Shown here: piece by piece, positions 2,917 to 44,768 of the stretch
Layout of the letters: every line of letters starts with the position of its first letter
Numbering within the stretch: position 1 is the first letter of the stretch
Source: an archaeon
GTDB taxonomy: Archaea; Iainarchaeota; Iainarchaeia; Iainarchaeales; GW2011-AR10
Assembly (NCBI GenBank): GCA_030651515.1
Contig: JAUSEO010000026.1
Location: 1-44,768 of the forward strand
Direction: 5' to 3'
Length of the DNA: 44,768 nucleotides
The notes under the pieces: model-generated
The model's input: only the letters and a program-made list of their open reading frames with translations
What the model was told of the DNA's origin: nothing
The model's database searches: none
Program-made: the position numbers and the translations under genes

Positions 2917-4389
2917 ATGCCTAGCATACTTGCAGTACTTGACCCGGTTTACAGGCTTTTGCCGGAAGTGAAAAAACCCGAAGTACAGGGCAGCCTCAAC
3001 AAGAGAATCACCTGGACGCTTGCAGCACTGGTTTTGTTTTTCATAATGGGAAACATCAGCGTGATTGGAATAGAGGCAAGCACTGCTGGGCAGCTTGCAC
3101 AGCTCCAGACAATACTTGCAAGCCAGATTGGAACCATAATAACAGTTGGAATCGGGCCTATTGTCCTTGCGTCCATAATCCTTCAGCTGCTTGTCGGCGG
3201 CGGGTTAATACAGGTTGACCTGACTGACACGGCAGAAAAAGCGCGGTTTACGTCCATGCAAAAACTGCTTGCAATCATTCTGTGCTTTGTTGAAGCAGGT
3301 GCTTACGTTTTCGGCGGGCTTCTCAGGCCGGCAGAGGGAATGTTTTTGTTTGTAATACTCCAGGTTGCAATTGGCTCGCTTATACTGATGTTTCTTGATG
3401 AAGTGGTTTCAAAGCACGGGATTGGTTCAGGAATCAGCCTCTTCATTGCAGGCGGGGTAGCCGGAGACGTTATCTGGAGGATATTCAACCCGCTTAACAG
3501 CCTGCGCGAACTCACTTTTTTTGGAAACGGGACAAATACTGGGGCAGGGCTAATCTGGCAGTTTTTTGCAGGCATACAATTTGACGGAGTGTTCTTGTCA
3601 TTTGTCACCAACCTTTTGCCGATTGTTTTCACGCTGGTGGTTTTCTTTGCCGTCGTGTTTGCAGAGGGAATGCACATAAACATCCCCATTGCAGTGGGAA
3701 GGGCGGGGCACAAGGCACGCTTTCCGGTAAAGTTTTTGTACGTTTCAAACATCCCTGTCATACTCGCAGCGGCATTGTTTGCAAACATTCAGCTCTGGTC
3801 AACCCTTTTGAGTGGCAGGCTTTCAACCGTGCCTGTGGTTGGGATTTTTCTTGAAAACGGGCTGAAGTTTTTGGCAACAATAGTGATTGCCCCGTTTCGC
3901 CTTGTTGAAAATTTTATCATCCAGGCTTCAAGCGAGGGGCTGGGTGTTTTCCAGACAATGGTAATGCAATTAGTACAGAGCATTACCACTTTGCAGCTTG
4001 TAGGGCTTGGGGGGCAGGTACTGCATGGCATTCTGTACATTTTTCTTTTGACCGTTTTGTGCGTTATTTTTGGAAAATTCTGGGTTGAAATGGCTGGCCA
4101 GGGGCCACAGGCTATTTCAAACCAGCTTGAAAAAAGCGGCATGTTCATCCCAGGGTTTCGAAGGGACCCAAGGGTCGTGAAGTCAATCCTTGAAAGGTAC
4201 ATCCCACCAATCAGCATCCTTGGCTCAATGTTTGTCGGGCTCTTGGCAGGGTTTGCGGACCTTACCGGTGCACTTGGAAGCGGGACAGGGATACTCCTGA
4301 CAGTTGGAATTGTTTACAGGCTTTATGAGGAGCTTGCAAAGCAGCAGTTAATCGAAATGCACCCTGTATTGGGGCAGTTCTTTGGTTGA
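2917..4389 (+). CDS. secY: Preprotein translocase subunit SecY
   Basis: 490-aa polytopic membrane protein at the canonical position after L15. Contains SecY-like blocks GIGPIVLASIILQLL and GILLTVGIVYRLYEE. Confidence 0.95.
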   Translation: MPSILAVLDPVYRLLPEVKKPEVQGSLNKRITWTLAALVLFFIMGNISVIGIEASTAGQLAQLQTILASQIGTIITVGIGPIVLASIILQLLVGGGLIQVDLTDTAEKARFTSMQKLLAIILCFVEAGAYVFGGLLRPAEGMFLFVILQVAIGSLILMFLDEVVSKHGIGSGISLFIAGGVAGDVIWRIFNPLNSLRELTFFGNGTNTGAGLIWQFFAGIQFDGVFLSFVTNLLPIVFTLVVFFAVVFAEGMHINIPIAVGRAGHKARFPVKFLYVSNIPVILAAALFANIQLWSTLLSGRLSTVPVVGIFLENGLKFLATIVIAPFRLVENFIIQASSEGLGVFQTMVMQLVQSITTLQLVGLGGQVLHGILYIFLLTVLCVIFGKFWVEMAGQGPQAISNQLEKSGMFIPGFRRDPRVVKSILERYIPPISILGSMFVGLLAGFADLTGALGSGTGILLTVGIVYRLYEELAKQQLIEMHPVLGQFFG

Positions 4390-4393
4390 GAAG
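4371..4393 (+). repeat. Direct repeat 1 (secY 3' end, includes the stop codon)
   Basis: ggggcagttctttggttgagaag recurs at 4475-4497 with one mismatch. Confidence 0.9.
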
Positions 4394-4415
4394 TATGACT
4401 AACAAAAATAGGAGT

Positions 4416-4473
4416 GTATTACTGCCCCGTTGAAAACGGGGCATATACGCGCCGTGAACCCGCGCAAGGGTTC
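4416..4473 (+). repeat. Structured intergenic element, copy A (short form)
   Basis: GTATTACTGCC-CCGTTGAAAACGG-GGCATATACGCGCCGT-GAACCCGCGCAAGGGTTC: two hairpins with conserved flanks shared with copies B-E. Confidence 0.85.
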
Positions 4474-4497: not shown

Positions 4498-4629
4498 GGT
4501 GAAAAAAGGTGGAAACTAACACAATGCAAAAAGCCGGAAAAAACAAAAATAAGAGGTTTTTTATTGCATTCGCTGGCAAAATATTTCACATTAGCCCGGT
4601 TTTCCCCAAATTAAAAAAGGCGGTTTTTC

Positions 4630-8052: not shown

Positions 8053-8094
8053 TTATGCAGGGGTACCGAAGTGGCCAAACGGGCAGGACTTAAG

Positions 8095-8187
8095 GAACGA
8101 GCCTTTGCGTGAGCTCGCGACGCTTATGTGTCCGGCCTGGTGGCCGGACGGTAATAATGTTGCAGTCAACGCGAAAAAGTTTGAGTG
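8095..8187 (+). other. tRNA-Leu intron (37/38 site) with a bulge-helix-bulge motif
   Basis: Central 4-bp helix is CTTA (nt 32-35) paired with TGAG near the intron 3' end. It is flanked by 3-nt bulges AG|G and TG|A. Outer helix is AAC/GTT. The intron interior carries copy E of the structured element. Confidence 0.75.
8098..8158 (-). repeat. Structured element, copy E (inside the tRNA-Leu intron)
   Basis: The + strand reads CGAGCctttgcgtgaGCTCG-CGACGCTTATGTGTCC-GGCCtggtGGCC-GGACGGTAATAAT. It is colinear with the reverse complement of copy D. Confidence 0.7.
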
Positions 8188-8234
8188 ATCCTGTGGCTTA
8201 GTGCCTTCGCAGGTTCGAACCCTGCCCCCTGCAT

Positions 8235-8350
8235 GAACCCTTGCGCTTAACAAACTGGCAAAAGAAACATTGTATTATTGTTCACTTGCCCATTTGTTAT
8301 TTGTTGGTTCACGGCGCGTATATGCCCTTTCTGCAAAATGGCAGTAATAC
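8235..8350 (-). repeat. Structured element, copy B (long form); also the likely promoter of the rpl18e operon
   Basis: The - strand reads GTATTACTGCC-ATTTTGCAGAAAG-GGCATATACGCGCCGTGAACC-[59-nt insert with imperfect 13-bp inverted repeat]-GCGCAAGGGTTC. On the + strand, GCGCGTATATGCC lies about 33 nt upstream of the ATG at 8354. Confidence 0.85.
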
Positions 8351-15857: not shown

Positions 15858-18623
15858 GTGTCCTTGGAAGAAAACAGCCTTGTCAAGACAATCCTACTTC
15901 TTGGCGCAATTTTATTCGGAGTCATCTTGATCATAGGCGCCATAATGCTGCTTGTCTTCCAAAAACCCGCAACTCCAACTACGTTCTGCGGGGACGGAAA
16001 AATCAACGACGAGGAACACTGCGAAGGCTCTTCCTTGCAGGGCTTCACCTGCATGGATTTCGGGTTAAGCGGCGGCACTCTTTCCTGTGGCAGCGGCACC
16101 TGCAAGTTTGACCTCTCAAAGTGCGAGCGCGAAAACATCCTGGACCCTGATGACAACCAGCCACAGCCTACGGAGGGATTGTGCATTTCTTTTGACGGCC
16201 TGACAGGCAAAACAGGCGCAGAGGCCGCACCACGCATGGCAACGTCGTGGGACTGGAGTGGCGCAAACAATTGCTTTATCGGGCTTGAAACCCAGGAGAA
16301 AGAACTTGGCGGGGTTAGTTATTGCGACTCGGCGCAGTTTGTCATACGCGTGTTTGAGGAACTGGAAAAAATGGAAACCAGCAAAGAGGCATCCAAGACT
16401 TTTTTCGCTGCACTGATAGCCGACGGCGTTTCTGAGGACTTCCGCAAGGACTTCTACCATTATTACAAGGAGCTCGCGTTTTTCGACCCGCCGTCTTTTT
16501 TCCTTGAAAACGCGCAAATCATCCTCGAAGAGGAACTGCTAGTGTTTGAACCACAACAGGTTGAAGAACCGGGGATTTACGAGGTCACGATAAGGCAGGA
16601 TGGCGCAAGTATTGTAGTGGAAATGAAACTTTTCAATAAGCCAATAAACCCGAGTGCGTTTTACTATTTTCCAATCGACGGCGAACTTGGGCTGAACAGG
16701 AGGGAGGATGAGACGCAACCGGACCGCGTTGGCTATGGCACGGGTTTTTCAGGTGACACATTCGTGTTTGGCGGTGTTACAATAGACCAAAATGTCATCT
16801 CGACAAACAGAAACGTTTCAGTGAGGAAAATAAATTCCTTTTTTGAGGCAAATGTTGAAAAAAGGGGCTATGCCCTGGACCTCGACCTTGAAAAAGGGAC
16901 ACTTGACGTTTACGCGTCAACCCCAAACGGCATAATGATTGACTTTAGCACTCTTGAAGGAGACGCAAAAAGGCTTGGGGCGCCTTTTTACCTCATAAAC
17001 GGTGACACCAAGGAAATAATGGCCGTGCCGCAGAATGTTTCCGAGTGGCGTTTTTTGTACTCCAAAAACCACTGCAGTGAAAAAGAAGCGCCTTTTCTGG
17101 GCAAAACATTCACGGACACGGTGCTTGAAAACAATGAATGCTTTACGGCAACCGGCCCTAGTTCAGTGGCTTATCCAAGCGTTTTAAGCGAGTTTGGGGG
17201 TCCGAACGCGGACGCGGTCATCGGAACCGTGATTTATGCAACCGACAGGTTTGTCCTACAGGGGGATTGCGGGACAAAAATCATCAGCCCAGAGGAAAGC
17301 CCGGAGCCTGGCAACAGCGCGTTCATCAACCACGTGGCAGTGGAAAATGACGTGGAATTCGGGAAAATTTCTCTTGGCGAGAAATGCATTTACGATGAAC
17401 CCCAAGGCAAAAAAGCCGTCGTGTTCTGGAATGAAAACCACGTTTTGAATGATTTTCCAACCTGCTCCAACTGCGCTTGTGTAAGCGACGAACTCGTATC
17501 AAGGATAATCGCAACAGGCTCAAAGCAGGAAGTGGTATACCCCGGTGTTTCGGTTTCTTTCTGGGTGCAGTTTGACGTGCGGTCCCCGATTTCACAGGCC
17601 GACATCGAGCTGTTTGTAAAAAAGCCTGACGGGAAAGAAATACGGGAAAGCCTGTCTTTTTTTGACAACGGTTCAAGCAACGATTTTGCGTACAACGACG
17701 GGATTTACGGCTCAACAATACCCGAGGGTTTCAAAGAGACGGGGGAGTATTATTTTTACTTCCGGGCAAAGGACGTTTACGGGAATGAAATGGAAAGCAA
17801 ACCAGCGGTGTTGCGGGTTGTTGAAAGGTCCGCGTGCGAAATAATACACTTTGGGGGAGAACTTGACAAACAATTGAACATTTTCATTGTCGGGGATAAC
17901 TGGGCGGAAAACCCTAGTGATTACTTGAACGAGGCAGTCGAGGCAAAAAACGGTTTTTTGAAAACACCCCCAGTGGACTCTTACCAAGGCGCGATTAACA
18001 TCATCACCATAAATGGGCCAGCGGACCTGGGTTGCACTGAAAGCGATAGGTATGCAGCCGGTCAGGTGGGCGGGGAAATACGTTATATCCGGGCGCTTAG
18101 GTGCGACGCTGAAAAAGTAGTGGCTGCGGCTGTTTCATGCGGCCTGCCATTCAAGGCAAGGGACGGGCCATTTGGGGACAAGGTGCTTGTCCTTTCCCAA
18201 ACAGGCACTGGATATAACCCTGCGCGTTTTGTCTCGAATGCTGACTTGTCAGGCCACATTGCAAGGGCGGGTGTTTTCCAAAACGACAGGTCACCCCAGG
18301 CACAAAGAACTGCAGTGCACGAACTGGGGCACACTTTTGGGTTGCTGGATTATTACTGGGACTTTGTCGGAGAGGCACTCGGCATAGAGTGGGACAATGG
18401 TTTTGCATGCATGAACAAAGAGGAAACAAACTGCATAATGTGCAACCTGGCTGAAAGTTCAAGGCAGGCTTATGACTGCACCACCACTTACAGGGACAAG
18501 TGCAACCTGTCAATCGACCAAGAGGAAGCTGAAGCGCCTTTCGGCATCTGCCCTGACAACCAGAAAGAATTAAACGATTATGAATACATGCAGGATTTTT
18601 TCTCAAAGCTTGAGGAGAGGTGA
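15858..18623 (+). CDS. Large membrane-anchored/secreted protein with a Cys-rich CGDG repeat and a C-terminal M64-like HEXXH zinc-metallopeptidase domain
   Basis: N-terminal TM (ILLLGAILFGVILIIGAIMLLVF). CGDGKINDEEHCEGSS...C repeat. NIFIVGDNWAE...AVHELGHTFGLLDYYW resembles peptidase M64. Confidence 0.7.
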   Translation: MSLEENSLVKTILLLGAILFGVILIIGAIMLLVFQKPATPTTFCGDGKINDEEHCEGSSLQGFTCMDFGLSGGTLSCGSGTCKFDLSKCERENILDPDDNQPQPTEGLCISFDGLTGKTGAEAAPRMATSWDWSGANNCFIGLETQEKELGGVSYCDSAQFVIRVFEELEKMETSKEASKTFFAALIADGVSEDFRKDFYHYYKELAFFDPPSFFLENAQIILEEELLVFEPQQVEEPGIYEVTIRQDGASIVVEMKLFNKPINPSAFYYFPIDGELGLNRREDETQPDRVGYGTGFSGDTFVFGGVTIDQNVISTNRNVSVRKINSFFEANVEKRGYALDLDLEKGTLDVYASTPNGIMIDFSTLEGDAKRLGAPFYLINGDTKEIMAVPQNVSEWRFLYSKNHCSEKEAPFLGKTFTDTVLENNECFTATGPSSVAYPSVLSEFGGPNADAVIGTVIYATDRFVLQGDCGTKIISPEESPEPGNSAFINHVAVENDVEFGKISLGEKCIYDEPQGKKAVVFWNENHVLNDFPTCSNCACVSDELVSRIIATGSKQEVVYPGVSVSFWVQFDVRSPISQADIELFVKKPDGKEIRESLSFFDNGSSNDFAYNDGIYGSTIPEGFKETGEYYFYFRAKDVYGNEMESKPAVLRVVERSACEIIHFGGELDKQLNIFIVGDNWAENPSDYLNEAVEAKNGFLKTPPVDSYQGAINIITINGPADLGCTESDRYAAGQVGGEIRYIRALRCDAEKVVAAAVSCGLPFKARDGPFGDKVLVLSQTGTGYNPARFVSNADLSGHIARAGVFQNDRSPQAQRTAVHELGHTFGLLDYYWDFVGEALGIEWDNGFACMNKEETNCIMCNLAESSRQAYDCTTTYRDKCNLSIDQEEAEAPFGICPDNQKELNDYEYMQDFFSKLEER

Positions 18624-26861: not shown

Positions 26862-26883
26862 AAACCCTTGCGCGGGTTTTAAA
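26862..26883 (+). terminator. Hairpin AAACCC-TTGCGC-GGGTTT plus T-run after the PIN gene (also hairpin 2 of element copy C)
   Basis: A 6-bp stem followed by TTTT on the + strand, and by T7 on the - strand. Confidence 0.45.
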
Positions 26884-26971
26884 ACTTTGGCAATTGAAGC
26901 AAATATTCGATATTTCTTTTGCCAAAGTTTTACGGCGCATATTTGCCTGGTCTTTGACCAGGCAGTAATAT
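26862..26971 (-). repeat. Structured element, copy C (long form); also the likely promoter of the rpo7 operon
   Basis: The - strand reads ATATTACTGCC-TGGTCAAAGACCA-GGCAAATATGCGCCGT-[perfect 13-bp inverted repeat AAAACTTTGGCAA, 25-nt spacer]-AAACCCGCGCAAGGGTTT. On the + strand, GCGCATATTTGCC lies about 36 nt upstream of the ATG at 26977. Confidence 0.85.
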
Positions 26972-44557: not shown

Positions 44558-44593
44558 GTATAACTTTTTAGTTGTTTTTTGGCTTTTCCTGCT

Positions 44594-44629
44594 CGGTACA
44601 AACCGGCTGGGTTTGCCAGTCGGTAATAC
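44594..44629 (-). repeat. Partial structured element (copy F), head-to-head with copy D
   Basis: The + strand reads GGTACAAA-CCGGCTGGgtttgCCAGTCGG-TAATAC. It forms the palindrome CGGTAATAC-A-GTATTACCG with the start of copy D. Confidence 0.5.
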
Positions 44630-44630
44630 A

Positions 44631-44688
44631 GTATTACCGCCCTTTCGCAGAAAGGGCACATACTGCGTTGCGGACCCTGCACGGGTTC
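44631..44688 (+). repeat. Structured intergenic element, copy D (short form, diverged)
   Basis: GTATTACCGCC-CTTTCGCAGAAAG-GGCACATACTGCGTTGC-GGACCCTGCACGGGTTC. Confidence 0.8.
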
Positions 44689-44768
44689 TTGGACTGGAAA
44701 GGCGAAAAAAGCATTCAAAAATAAGGTGTTTTTTTTGGCAAAATCCGTGGAAAAAAAAGAGGAAAAAG

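What the first reader, a model, noticed from the sequence alone, without database searches (positions are those of the whole stretch)
4416..4473. Unclassified family of structured intergenic elements with compensatory hairpin changes (5 clear copies plus 1 partial)
The same architecture recurs at these sites:
- 4416-4473 (+)
- 8235-8350 (-)
- 26862-26971 (-)
- 44631-44688 (+)
- about 8098-8158 (-), inside a tRNA intron
- 44594-44629 (-), partial

In element orientation the layout is: GTATTACYGCC, hairpin 1, GGCAnATAyGCGYYG, hairpin 2 (GAACCC-GCGCAA-GGGTTC or a variant).

The flanks are conserved. Hairpin 1 changes sequence but always pairs:
- A: CCCCGTT/AACGGGG
- B: CCATTTT/GAAAGGG
- C: CCTGGTC/GACCAGG
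- D: CCCTTTC/GAAAGGG
- E: CCGGCC/GGCCGG

Hairpin 2 also covaries (GAACCC/GGGTTC, GGACCC/GGGTTC, CGAGC/GCTCG). Conserved flanks combined with covarying stems point to selection on a folded RNA (or ssDNA), not on coding sequence.

I cannot match it to any RNA family I know. It has no C/D boxes, no GA kink-turn, and no SRP or RNase P signature blocks.
Basis: seen in the sequence. Interest (0 to 1): 0.82.

Follow-up and report, generated by a model that had tools for sequence, protein, structure and literature searches.

The report
Small folded mobile repeat in DPANN archaea
A 58-base repeat found only in a small group of tiny groundwater archaea (Iainarchaeota) keeps a conserved hairpin-plus-pseudoknot fold, comes and goes between close relatives (including inside tRNA introns), and leaves insertion scars that suggest a copy-from-the-3'-end mechanism not described in archaea.

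Summary
No Rfam family matches. About 27 copies or fragments exist, all in Iainarchaeota assemblies.

The fold has four helices:
- P1, a 4-bp closing helix (NUAU/AUAN)
- a UAC bulge
- P2, an 8-bp hairpin of variable sequence
- P3, a 6-bp hairpin whose loop (RCGC) pairs with GCGY just 3' of P1, giving an H-type pseudoknot

In 19 copies, 92% of pair cells are paired and 15 of 22 pairs change on both sides. G-U outnumbers A-C 24 to 7, so the GTATTAC...GGGTTC strand is the folded one.

The family is mobile. Sites filled here are empty in close relatives and vice versa. One copy lies in frame in rps9. The dnaK 3' end was hit up to three times.

Insertion scars:
- Flanking direct repeats of 17-24 nt in four events, and near zero in others.
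- The element's 3' end always flush with the target.
- Filler bases only at the 5' end.
- Two head-to-head dimers with both 3' ends flush.

My best reading is a non-autonomous element copied from its exact 3' end, primed by chromosomal 3'-OH ends (SINE/TPRT-like). The RNA intermediate and the enzyme are inferred, not shown.

The parts
4416..4473 (+). Copy A: complete 58-nt element, in sense orientation between secY and the EMC3/YidC-like gene
   Evidence: 82.6 bits, E = 2e-19; minimum-free-energy fold gives P1, P2 and P3. The site is empty in relatives L009 and L010.
4370..4393 (+). Left copy of the direct repeat flanking A (TGGGGCAGTTCTTTGGTTGAGAAG). It holds the last codons and stop of secY. 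A further 22 nt (4394-4415) look like a shortened copy of the sequence that follows the right copy.
   Evidence: 23 of 24 identical; 0 of 300-400 shuffles reach the score
4474..4497 (+). Right copy of the direct repeat flanking A. It starts flush with the element's 3' end.
8057..8233 (+). Class II tRNA gene, most likely tRNA-Leu(UAA), with a 93-nt intron at position 37/38 (8095-8187), lying between rpoD and rpl18e
   Evidence: Read directly from the sequence. ARAGORN with introns allowed gives 8056-8234 with a 93-nt intron. Its anticodon calls (tat here, tga in L009 and L010) differ from my reading because the intron position is ambiguous.
8099..8157 (-). Copy E: complete element inside the tRNA intron, antisense to the tRNA. 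Its 3' end lies 3-4 nt from the 5' splice site.
   Evidence: 72.3 bits. Counterparts sit in the same intron in L009 and L016; a 5'-truncated copy sits there in L010 and L011.
8235..8350 (-). Copy B: element antisense to the flanking genes. Its 3' end lies 1 nt after the tRNA discriminator base. It carries a nested insert.
   Evidence: The site is empty in L009 and L010 and filled in L016 and L017.
8247..8305 (.). Nested 59-nt palindromic insert inside hairpin P3 of copy B
   Evidence: (I25)
26862..26971 (-). Copy C: element antisense between the PIN-domain gene and rpoE'. Its 3' end lies 2 nt after the PIN stop codon. It carries a nested insert.
   Evidence: The site is empty in L014, L015 and L019. 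It is filled in L012, L013 and L018 with a different P2.
26881..26931 (.). Nested 51-nt palindromic insert between the GCGCCGT block and P3 of copy C. It is homologous to the insert in B but lies in the opposite orientation relative to the host element.
   Evidence: (I25)
44631..44688 (+). Copy D: complete element downstream of the Bud32/RIO-type kinase gene, 80 nt from the contig end
   Evidence: 64.6 bits. The site is empty in L019 and L020.
44599..44629 (-). Partial copy F': the 5' end GTATTACCG plus a P3-like hairpin, with P2 and the middle block missing. It lies head-to-head with D, 1 nt between the two 5' ends.
   Evidence: Comparison with the empty site in L020 sets its limits.
44575..44589 (+). 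Left arm of a hairpin that existed before the insertion; the F'/D pair sits in its apex. The right arm is 44696-44710.
   Evidence: L020 shows the uninterrupted hairpin GCTCTTCCGGGTC-GTTAT-GGGACCGGAAAGGCG.

Best explanation
**Shown**

This is a lineage-restricted family of 58-nt non-coding interspersed elements (Candidatus Iainarchaeota, DPANN).

The strand reading GTATTAC...GGGTTC has a conserved fold:
- P1, 4 bp
- a UAC bulge
- P2, an 8-bp hairpin of free sequence
- a 4-bp pseudoknot between GCGY and the loop of P3
- P3, 6 bp

The family is mobile:
- Copies are gained and lost between genomes whose proteins are 75-94% identical.
- They sit in either orientation between essential genes, in tRNA introns, next to tRNA ends, and once in frame inside rps9.
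- Resident copies are overwritten by other family members.

Insertion scars:
- The element's 3' end is always joined flush to the target.
- Extra bases occur only at the 5' end.
- Flanking duplications vary from about 0 to at least 24 nt.
- Two head-to-head dimers have both 3' ends flush. One of them is flanked by a 21-nt duplication.

**Inferred**

New copies are made when a chromosomal 3'-OH, at a nick or at both ends of a staggered break, primes copying of a free sense-strand template from its exact 3' end. This is the geometry of target-primed reverse transcription and twin priming.

The conserved fold, above all the 3'-terminal pseudoknot, would be the handle that the copying enzyme recognises. 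The element itself encodes nothing and depends on an enzyme supplied in trans.

The template is most likely RNA and the enzyme most likely a reverse transcriptase. Neither has been observed.
For: **Structure**
- 12 copies: 97.3% of pair cells paired; 13 pairs change on both sides.
- 19 copies: 92.3% paired; 15 of 22 pairs change on both sides. 0 of 500 shuffles reach these values, and versions with the partners slid by 1-3 columns collapse to 24-51% paired.
- The outer pair of P1 is G-C, A-U, U-A or G-U.
- The pseudoknot pair is C-G, U-A, G-C or U-G.

**Folded strand**
- G-U cells 24, A-C cells 7 (binomial p = 0.003).

**Restricted range**
- A scan of 185,579 species genomes gave 5 true hits, all in two Iainarchaeum MAGs.
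- One hit in metagenome contigs.
- None in viral contigs.

**Mobility: filled versus empty sites**
- A and B are filled in the window and empty in L009 and L010.
- C is filled in the window, L012 and L018, and empty in L014, L015 and L019.
- The rps9 site is filled in L009 and empty in the window and L010.
- The dnaK-dnaJ site is filled in L015, L019 and L020, and empty in the window and L012.

**Flanking duplications**

| Event | Length | Shuffle result |
|---|---|---|
| A | 24 nt | 0 of 300-400 shuffles |
| L002 dimer | 21 nt | 0 of 300-400 shuffles |
| L015 | 18-19 nt | about 0.01 |
| L019 | 17 nt | 0 of 1000 shuffles |

- In each, the repeat copy next to the element's 3' end starts at offset 0.
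- Single insertions have 4-22 extra bases at the 5' end.

**Head-to-head dimers**
- L002 and window F'/D.

**5'-truncated copy**
- L010 and L011 hold a copy with an intact, flush 3' end.

**Overwriting of resident copies**
- At site C, the window and L018 have nearly identical flanks but an entirely different P2.
- In L016, the intron copy and the B-site copy share the same 3' half.

**No promoter**
- The upstream flanks share no conserved sequence.
Against: - No reverse transcriptase, or any other candidate enzyme, was seen in about 250 kb of related DNA. The gene lists carry no RVT family. Whole genomes could not be searched.
- No transcript data exist.
- Several insertions show no detectable duplication: B, C, D/F', L009 rps9 and L020.
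- Only four duplications are statistically solid.
- The element has no A-rich or other simple 3' tail, and no internal promoter, unlike classical SINEs.
- Target-primed reverse transcription of a non-intron element is not known in archaea (my knowledge of the field; the review PMC8632793 lists group II introns, DGRs, retrons and CRISPR-associated RTs in archaea).
- G-T pairs are also tolerated in single-stranded DNA, so the strand bias does not prove an RNA.
- All the data come from metagenome assemblies. Repeats break such assemblies: L001, L016 and L017 all end inside copies.
Confidence: 0.45

Rival explanations
1. A purely DNA-based mobile element. A transposase or nuclease recognises the fold in single-stranded or cruciform DNA. 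Candidates are an HUH/Y1 enzyme as in IS200/IS605, REP-RAYT or rolling-circle systems, or an integrase that makes long staggered cuts. It cuts or copies the 58-nt unit and pastes it elsewhere.
For: - A variable-sequence hairpin directly follows a conserved TTAC/TATTAC. This recalls the REP 'GTAG + hairpin' layout, the TTAC target of IS608, and the TATT|AC nick site of CRESS Rep proteins (recalled from memory, not tested).
- The strand-specific fold also fits single-stranded DNA.
- Head-to-head pairs resemble REPINs.
- A Y1_Tnp gene exists in a relative (L011).
- Some DNA insertion sequences, such as the IS1634 and IS1549 groups, are known to make long duplications of variable length (from memory).
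Against: - The two ends of a single element are not inverted repeats, so a DDE-type mechanism is unlikely.
- HUH single-strand transposons make no duplications and insert next to a fixed tetranucleotide or pentanucleotide. Here four events have 17-24-nt duplications, and the flanks share no motif.
- The empty rps9 site lacks TATTAC, so that motif travels with the element.
- The flanks of the L011 Y1_Tnp gene do not resemble the element.
- Filler bases on one side only do not fit a transposase that joins both ends precisely.
Confidence: 0.22
2. A host-beneficial structured RNA module that has been duplicated around the genome, for example an RNA stability, processing or termination signal, or a small RNA. 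On this view mobility is incidental.
For: - Sequence and fold are strongly conserved, with near-invariant unpaired bases.
- Copies cluster at gene ends and tRNA ends.
- In L008 a copy sits exactly between a stop codon and the next start codon.
Against: - Orientation relative to the host transcription unit is about evenly split, including antisense inside tRNA introns, so many copies cannot fold as part of the host transcript.
- No gene or site carries the element consistently across relatives. Many sites are empty in genomes whose proteins are 74-86% identical (L009/L019, L014).
- There is no conserved promoter.
- One copy is being translated and is decaying inside rps9.
Confidence: 0.1
3. The apparent compensatory changes are a by-product of DNA processes. 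Quasi-palindrome correction by intrastrand template switching, plus gene conversion among copies, would keep the stems perfect without any selection on a fold.
For: - Whole P2 cassettes are swapped between otherwise identical loci.
- Neighbouring copies share converted halves.
- Many 'covarying' cells are therefore inherited as blocks rather than being independent events.
Against: - This does not explain why unpaired positions are near-invariant while the stem sequences are free.
- It does not explain covariation in the 4-bp pseudoknot, or in the P1 pair that spans the whole of P2.
- It does not explain the 24:7 excess of G-U over A-C on one strand.
Confidence: 0.08
4. A mobile archaeal bulge-helix-bulge intron, excised from RNA by the tRNA splicing endonuclease wherever it lands.
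For: - Copies lie in tRNA introns at the canonical 37/38 position in tRNA-Leu and tRNA-Gly(UCC).
- A 4-bp helix followed by a 3-nt bulge (P1 + UAC) looks like half of a BHB motif.
Against: - The intron copies are antisense to the tRNA and occupy only part of a longer intron.
- Intergenic copies have no exon context.
- Removing the 58 nt from the rps9 copy breaks the reading frame, while leaving it in keeps the conserved RKRKG(L/I)TAKAKKK segment in frame.
- The flanking duplications are not expected for splicing-based mobility.
Confidence: 0.03

Closest known systems
SINEs and other non-autonomous retroposons mobilised by target-primed reverse transcription, including L1 'twin priming' inversions and endonuclease-independent insertion at breaks
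   Same: - Short and non-coding.
- Subfamilies look like descendants of master copies.
- Flanking duplications vary in length.
- The 3' junction is precise and the 5' junction ragged or filled.
- One copy is 5'-truncated.
- Inverted dimers have both 3' ends joined to the target.
- A structured 3' end could serve as the enzyme's handle, as in stringent LINE/SINE pairs and the R2 3' UTR.
   Different: - No poly(A) or simple-repeat tail.
- No internal promoter.
- Only 58 nt long.
- The host is an archaeon in which no LINE-like reverse transcriptase-endonuclease is known.
- No partner enzyme has been identified.
- No RNA has been demonstrated.
Rickettsia palindromic elements (RPE) and similar bacterial structured repeats (Correia, ERIC, BOX)
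   Same: - Small structured repeats in a reduced genome.
- Found between genes, inside RNA genes, and occasionally in frame inside protein-coding genes.
- The mechanism of spread is unknown.
   Different: - Unrelated in sequence.
- About half the size.
- Carries a covarying pseudoknot and highly conserved unpaired bases.
- Some insertions show long flanking duplications.
REP/REPIN elements with RAYT, and IS200/IS605-derived palindrome-associated elements (PATEs)
   Same: - A conserved short motif directly 5' of a hairpin whose stem varies but always pairs.
- The fold is strand-specific.
- Inverted pairs occur.
- Located outside genes.
   Different: - Those families make no flanking duplications and use a fixed target or guide tetranucleotide.
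- Here duplications of 17-24 nt occur and no target motif is seen.
- No RAYT or TnpA gene is linked to the element.
Classical MITEs (derived from DDE transposons)
   Same: - Short and non-autonomous.
- Multicopy and intergenic.
- Copies break assemblies.
   Different: - A single element has no terminal inverted repeats.
- The duplication length is not fixed.
Archaeal tRNA introns and the 'intron transposition' reported in Thermoproteales
   Same: - Related sequences occur in introns of different tRNA genes at position 37/38.
- The element enlarges introns from roughly 35-45 nt to 93-105 nt.
   Different: - The element is a passenger, antisense within a pre-existing intron.
- Most copies are not in introns at all.
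3'-terminal pseudoknotted tRNA-like structures (plant viral TLS) and the 3' tRNA-like tag of the Mauriceville retroplasmid
   Same: - The 3'-terminal strand of the element pairs into a hairpin loop, giving a coaxial stack of about 10 bp that ends exactly at the 3' terminus.
- This is a plausible 'start here' tag for a polymerase.
   Different: - No CCA end.
- No evidence of aminoacylation or of processing by tRNA enzymes.
- The resemblance is topological only and is recalled from memory.

Membership tests
Any Rfam 15 family (including twister, pistol, hatchet, hammerhead and HDV-like ribozymes, C/D and H/ACA sRNAs, and riboswitches) | Score at or above the family's gathering threshold | tested here: not met
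   no matches in the whole window; in E-value mode the best matches are 19.1 bits or less, against thresholds of 40-90 bits, and all are unrelated families.
C/D box or H/ACA sRNA | C (RUGAUGA) and D (CUGA) boxes with a kink-turn; or a pseudouridylation pocket plus K-turn plus ACA box | tested here: not met
   The sequences of all copies have no C/D boxes. An ANA triplet follows P2, but P2 is a plain 8-bp hairpin with no internal pocket and no K-turn.
DDE-type MITE | Terminal inverted repeats at the two ends of one element | tested here: not met
   The 5' end GTATTACYGCC and the reverse complement of the 3' end, GAACCCTTGCGC, are unrelated.
DDE-type MITE | Target-site duplication of fixed length | tested here: not met
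   Observed lengths are 24 or more, 21, 18-19, 17, about 6, and 0-2 nt.
IS200/IS605-derived PATE or REP-RAYT element | No target duplication, and insertion next to a conserved tetranucleotide or pentanucleotide | tested here: not met
   Four events have significant duplications, and the flanks share no motif. The empty rps9 site lacks TATTAC.
IS200/IS605-derived PATE or REP-RAYT element | An associated Y1 (HUH) transposase whose own ends resemble the repeat | tested here: inconclusive
   One Y1_Tnp gene lies in relative L011, but its flanks do not match the model (best 4.2 bits). Whole genomes could not be searched.
IS200/IS605-derived PATE or REP-RAYT element | A strand-specific hairpin with a conserved motif at its 5' foot | tested here: met
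   TTAC lies directly 5' of P2 in almost all copies. The G-U:A-C ratio is 24:7.
SINE-like retroposon (target-primed or break-primed reverse transcription) | Flanking duplications of variable length, with a precise 3' junction and an imprecise 5' junction | tested here: met
   in all four significant cases the repeat copy is flush (offset 0) with the 3' end. Single insertions have 4-22 filler bases at the 5' end.
SINE-like retroposon (target-primed or break-primed reverse transcription) | Inverted head-to-head dimers with both 3' ends joined to the target (twin priming) | tested here: met
   L002 dimer with a 21-nt duplication. Window F'/D dimer in the apex of a pre-existing hairpin.
SINE-like retroposon (target-primed or break-primed reverse transcription) | An RNA intermediate and a partner reverse transcriptase in the same genome | not testable with these tools
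   No transcript data. No RVT family appears in the gene lists (about 250 kb held).
SINE-like retroposon (target-primed or break-primed reverse transcription) | An internal promoter and an A-rich or simple-repeat 3' tail | tested here: not met
   The element ends at the last base pair of P3. Only some copies are followed by a T run. No promoter-like block is conserved.
Archaeal bulge-helix-bulge intron | Excision restores a functional exon sequence | tested here: not met
   In the rps9 copy, removing the 58 nt shifts the frame, while keeping it preserves the conserved downstream peptide. The intron copies are antisense passengers.
Cis-regulatory leader or riboswitch | A fixed orientation and position relative to a conserved downstream gene | tested here: not met
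   Copies occur in both orientations next to unrelated genes: secY, rpl18e, rpoE', dnaK, rps9 and an NMNAT gene.
Rolling-circle or CRESS Rep origin | The nonanucleotide NANTATTAC in the loop of a hairpin, next to a rep gene | tested here: not met
   TATTAC is conserved, but it spans the P1 helix and the bulge rather than a hairpin loop. No rep gene was seen, and there were no hits in viral contigs.

The most novel reading that the evidence does not exclude
This would be the first SINE-like retroposon family described in Archaea. The 58-nt RNA would carry a 3'-terminal pseudoknot that acts as a 'start here' tag for a reverse transcriptase supplied in trans. The enzyme would copy the RNA onto chromosomal 3'-OH ends, which explains the twin-primed dimers and the variable duplications. 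The same process would colonise and enlarge tRNA introns and land within 0-4 nt of tRNA ends, the 5' splice site and stop codons. That placement hints that positions defined at the RNA level supply the primers.
Probability: 0.3. Interest if true: 0.9.

Novelty: new variant of a known kind. Interest (0 to 1): 0.68.

Why it matters
- **Why it is unexpected.** DPANN archaea have tiny, tightly packed genomes and are thought to carry few mobile elements. Here a 58-nt element with a conserved pseudoknotted fold is actively turning over between ribosomal-protein, RNA-polymerase and chaperone genes, and inside tRNA genes.
- **What the scars imply.** They do not fit any of the prokaryotic transposition classes tested here (DDE-type MITE, IS200/IS605 or REP, rolling-circle). 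They match the geometry of target-primed copying.
- **If an RNA intermediate is confirmed.** Retroposition of a non-intron element would be extended to Archaea.
- **A testable route for intron growth.** The data suggest how archaeal tRNA introns grow and spread.
- **A new RNA motif.** The element would provide a compact new RNA motif together with its recognising enzyme.
- **Practical consequence.** The element explains assembly breaks in these MAGs. It should also be added to RNA and repeat libraries, so that the tRNA genes it invades stop being missed.

Tried and rejected
- **Rfam.** Gathering thresholds on the window, and E-value mode on the tRNA region and on copy A: nothing.
- **Portable promoter.** I considered the reverse complement of the middle block (GTATATG) as a TATA box about 30 nt upstream of rpl18e and rpoE'. 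I rejected this because many copies read GTATGTG or TTATGTG, copies A and D would fire away from any gene, and the true start codons lie further downstream.
- **H/ACA sRNA.** An ANA triplet follows P2, but there is no pocket and no K-turn.
- **HDV-like, twister or pistol topology.** The helix order does not fit and no Rfam model matches.
- **IS200/IS605 link through the Y1_Tnp gene in L011.** Its flanks are unrelated to the element.
- **Viral or plasmid source.** Two scans of viral contigs returned no hits.
- **Source of the 5' filler bases.** BLAST of the fillers against all held DNA found no donor.
- **The window D/F' pair as a palindromic duplication.** Rejected: the empty site in L020 shows that the inverted flanks are the arms of a hairpin that was already there.
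- **Literature.** Searches on Iainarchaeum/Diapherotrites introns, repeats and reverse transcriptases found nothing describing this family.
- **Scan limits.** The single genome-collection scan and the single metagenome scan were both spent on one strict pattern, so diverged copies elsewhere may have been missed.
Full report
**1. Where the window comes from**

The window is an archaeal chromosome segment with the classic gene order:
- ribosomal proteins, secY, an EMC3/YidC-like gene
- rpoD, a tRNA, rpl18e, rpl13, rps9
- aIF5B, aIF2-gamma, a PIN-domain gene, rpoE'
- kae1, grpE-dnaK-dnaJ, valS, a Bud32-type kinase gene

Almost all of these genes are on the + strand. The ValRS protein matches at 100% a protein of an NCBI 'MAG: archaeon' whose longest contig is 44,768 nt, so the window is that whole contig. 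The closest named relative is the groundwater MAG JACQJF01, 'Candidatus Iainarchaeum archaeon' (aIF2-gamma 92% identical). Iainarchaeota belong to the DPANN group, kingdom Nanobdellati.

**2.

All five copies and the partial copy are at the stated coordinates.
- The 5' motif TATTACYGYC has six exact matches, all in copies. With up to 1 mismatch there are 12 matches against 3.8 expected.
- The repeat finder pairs the copies (D13, I1-I3).
- A covariance model built from 12 copies scores the window copies at E = 1e-9 to 2e-19.
- With filters off, the model finds no further full copy in the window.

- Hairpin 1 of B is the same sequence as in D with two substitutions, and has one mismatch.
- B and C are long because each holds a nested palindromic insert of 51-59 nt. 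The two inserts are homologous to each other but lie in opposite orientation relative to the host element.
- The tRNA around E is missed by default ARAGORN and by Rfam. It is plain in the sequence: a class II tRNA with anticodon loop CUUAAG, discriminator A, and a 93-nt intron at 37/38. ARAGORN finds it once introns are allowed.

**3. The fold**

In element orientation the consensus is:

N-UAU | UAC | YGYC-NNNNN-(3-5-nt loop)-NNNNN-GRCA | Y | AUA-N | GCGY | YGY | RRRCCC | RCGC-AA | GGGYYY

| Helix | Pairing | Covariation |
|---|---|---|
| P1 | NUAU with AUAN | Outer pair is G-C, A-U, U-A or G-U |
| Pseudoknot | GCGY, directly after P1, with RCGC in the P3 loop | GCGC/GCGC, GCGU/ACGC, GCGG/CCGC and wobble forms |

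Together the last two form a compact H-type pseudoknot whose 3' strand is the very 3' end of the element.

Counts:
- 12 copies: 97.3% of cells paired against 84.3% in shuffles; 13 pairs change on both sides; 0 of 500 shuffles reach either value.
- 19 copies: 92.3% against 77.2%; 15 of 22 pairs; 0 of 500. Sliding the partners by 1-3 columns drops pairing to 24-51%.
- Single-sequence folds recover P1, P2 and P3.
- G-U cells outnumber A-C cells 24 to 7 (p = 0.003). The strand written above is therefore the one whose fold is maintained, even for copies that lie antisense to their host transcription unit.

No Rfam family resembles the element.

**4. Distribution**

| Search | Result |
|---|---|
| Strict pattern on one genome from each of 185,579 species | Five true hits, all in two Iainarchaeum MAGs, plus one chance hit inside a bacterial pyrF gene |
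| Metagenome contigs | One hit |
| Viral contigs | None |
| Covariance model on loci fetched around orthologues of rpoD, aIF2-gamma and valS | More copies |

In total there are about 27 copies or fragments in at least nine assemblies. Three short contigs end inside copies: L001 ends 2 nt before the end of A, and L016 and L017 end inside the B-site copy. This is the behaviour expected of a dispersed repeat.

**5. The element is mobile**

| Site | Filled | Empty |
|---|---|---|
| A (secY / EMC3-like) | window | L009 (RpoD 84%), L010 |
| B (tRNA / rpl18e) | window, L016, L017 | L009, L010 |
| C (PIN / rpoE') | window, L012, L013, L018 | L014, L015, L019 |
| rps9 5' end | L009 | window, L010 |
| dnaK / dnaJ | L015 (sense), L019 and L020 (antisense) | window, L012 |
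| D | window | L019, L020 |

- In rps9 of L009, a decaying 58-nt copy lies inside the 5' coding region. The reading frame runs through it and keeps the conserved RKRKG(L/I)TAKAKKK segment. Deleting exactly the 58 nt would shift the frame. The copy is therefore translated, not spliced.
- Orientation relative to the host genes is about evenly split.
- The upstream flanks share no promoter-like block.

**6. Resident copies are overwritten**

- At site C, the window and L018 have flanks that differ at 2 of about 50 positions. Yet P2 is completely different (CTGCCTGGTCAAAGACCAGGCA against CCGTCCCTTCGAAGAAGGGACA). L012 has a composite of two P2 modules.
- In L016, the intron copy and the B-site copy, about 130 nt apart, share the same 3' half.
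- The same P2 sequences recur at unrelated sites in different genomes: A and L008 share one; B, D and L002a share another.

Much of the covariation is therefore inherited as blocks from a pool of differing, structure-competent family members. It does not arise from slow change in place. This fits selection acting on the ability to propagate.

**7. Insertion scars**

| Event | Orientation | Repeat length | Shuffle result | Extra bases at the 5' end |
|---|---|---|---|---|
| A | sense | 24 nt of the secY 3' end (possibly about 45/83 nt with internal deletions) | 0 of 300-400 shuffles | 22, or none if the repeat is longer |
| L015 | sense | 18-19 nt of the dnaK 3' end | about 0.01 | 4-6 |
| L019 | antisense | 17 nt of the dnaK 3' end | 0 of 1000 shuffles | 5-7 |
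| L002 head-to-head dimer | both | 21 nt, starting at a stop codon | 0 of 300-400 shuffles | 1 nt between the two 5' ends |

- In every case the repeat copy next to the element's 3' end begins at offset 0.
- In the L002 dimer both outer (3') ends are flush.
- L008 has a weak 6-nt repeat spanning an ATGA stop/start overlap.
- The window F'/D dimer sits in the apex of a pre-existing hairpin with both 3' ends flush and no more than 2 nt of duplication.
- The rps9 insertion shows no duplication.
- L010 and L011 hold a 5'-truncated copy with an intact 3' end.
- Copies whose P3 ends in U's lie next to A/T runs (C, L003, L006, L020), which is compatible with microhomology at the priming end.

**8. 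Interpretation**

Four features stand out: a flush 3' end, a ragged 5' end, duplications of variable length, and inverted dimers with both 3' ends joined to the target. This is the geometry produced when chromosomal 3'-OH ends prime copying of a free template from its exact 3' terminus. It is known from target-primed reverse transcription, twin priming and break-primed insertion of non-LTR retroelements (established knowledge, not tested here).

The geometry does not fit the alternatives:
- DDE transposons need inverted ends and give a fixed duplication.
- HUH single-strand transposons give no duplication and use a fixed target.
- Bulge-helix-bulge splicing is contradicted by the rps9 frame test.

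The conserved fold on one strand, with free stem sequences and near-invariant unpaired bases, would be the recognition handle. The pseudoknot ends exactly at the 3' terminus.

The weak points are serious:
- No reverse transcriptase or other enzyme was seen in about 250 kb of related DNA.
- No transcripts are available.
- Only four duplications are solid.
- The strand bias also fits single-stranded DNA.

According to a review, reverse transcriptases in DPANN are mostly DGR-type (PMC8632793). An enzyme source is therefore conceivable but unproven.

**9. An unexplained regularity**

The element's 3' end lies within 0-4 nt of a tRNA boundary at six independent sites:

| Boundary | Copies | Orientation |
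|---|---|---|
| tRNA-Leu 3' end | B, L016 | antisense |
| tRNA-Gly(UCC) 3' end | L004a | antisense |
| tRNA-Gly(GCC) 3' end | L004d | antisense |
| 5' splice site of tRNA-Leu | E, L009, L016 | antisense |
| 5' splice site of tRNA-Gly(UCC) | L004b, gap 0 | antisense |
| tRNA-Val 5' end | L004c | sense |

It also lies 0-2 nt from stop codons (C, L019, L020). Spacers here are short, but not short enough to make this likely by survivorship alone. These boundaries are defined at the RNA level, which may be a clue to where the priming ends come from. I could not test this.

**10. Verdict**

This is a real family of structured mobile elements, absent from Rfam 15 and from the papers searched, and specific to Iainarchaeota. 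I file it as a new variant of the known kind 'small non-autonomous structured repeats'. A substantial minority reading is that it is the first archaeal SINE-like retroposon.

Noticed in passing
window 8057-8233 (+): An intron-containing class II tRNA, most likely Leu-UAA with a 93-nt intron, lies between rpoD and rpl18e. Default ARAGORN and Rfam do not see it. With introns allowed, ARAGORN finds it but assigns inconsistent anticodons (tat here, tga in L009 and L010).
   Followed up: partly
window 8247-8305 and 26881-26931: A second palindromic element of 51-59 nt is nested in copies B and C, next to or inside hairpin P3. The two inserts are homologous but lie in opposite orientation relative to their host copies. 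No free-standing copy was found in about 250 kb of held DNA.
   Followed up: partly
L009 11750-12241 (rps9): A decaying 58-nt copy lies in frame in the 5' coding region of rps9. It adds 21 residues to the N-terminus (163 aa against 142-144 aa in relatives).
   Followed up: yes
L011 5392-5766 (-): A short (124 aa) IS200-type Y1_Tnp gene in a more distant relative. The HUH motif is present, but the usual catalytic Tyr position reads FWSKGKSG. Its flanks carry GC-rich hairpins unrelated to the 58-nt element.
   Followed up: partly
L005 3-875 (-): An ORF with a LAGLIDADG_3 homing-endonuclease domain lies about 100 nt from, and divergent to, a copy of the element in JACQJF01. This is probably coincidence.
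   Followed up: no
window 44768 (contig end); L001 end; L016 and L017 ends: The window is a whole MAG contig that stops 80 nt after copy D. Three independent short contigs stop inside copies A and B. The repeat appears to break assemblies of these genomes.
   Followed up: partly
window 44575-44589 and 44696-44710; L020 12695-12725: A conserved inverted repeat (hairpin) downstream of the Bud32-type kinase gene. It is intact in L020. In the window the F'/D dimer splits it at its apex.
   Followed up: partly
window 4416-4426 and the 5' ends of the other copies: The 5' end GTATTACCGC equals the reverse complement of the universal 16S rRNA 530-loop sequence (GCGGTAATAC, the 519R primer site). It also contains the TATTAC of CRESS Rep nick sites. 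Both resemblances are recalled from memory and may be coincidence.
   Followed up: no
window 4525-4600; L009 7262-7330: A short conserved reading frame (M..KNKNKRFFIAFAGKIF..) lies between secY and the EMC3/YidC-like gene. The duplication flanking copy A includes its start.
   Followed up: no
window 15858-18623 (+); L012 1-2411; L009 15796-18831: A large conserved ORF of 921-1011 aa with no Pfam match, next to the GluRS gene in all three relatives.
   Followed up: no
L012 11623-11690 (-): At site C, the closest relative has an extra partial copy (5' end plus P2) fused to a different short hairpin (GAACCttttaacaaaaGGTTC) upstream of a full copy. The site has been hit or rearranged more than once.
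   Followed up: partly
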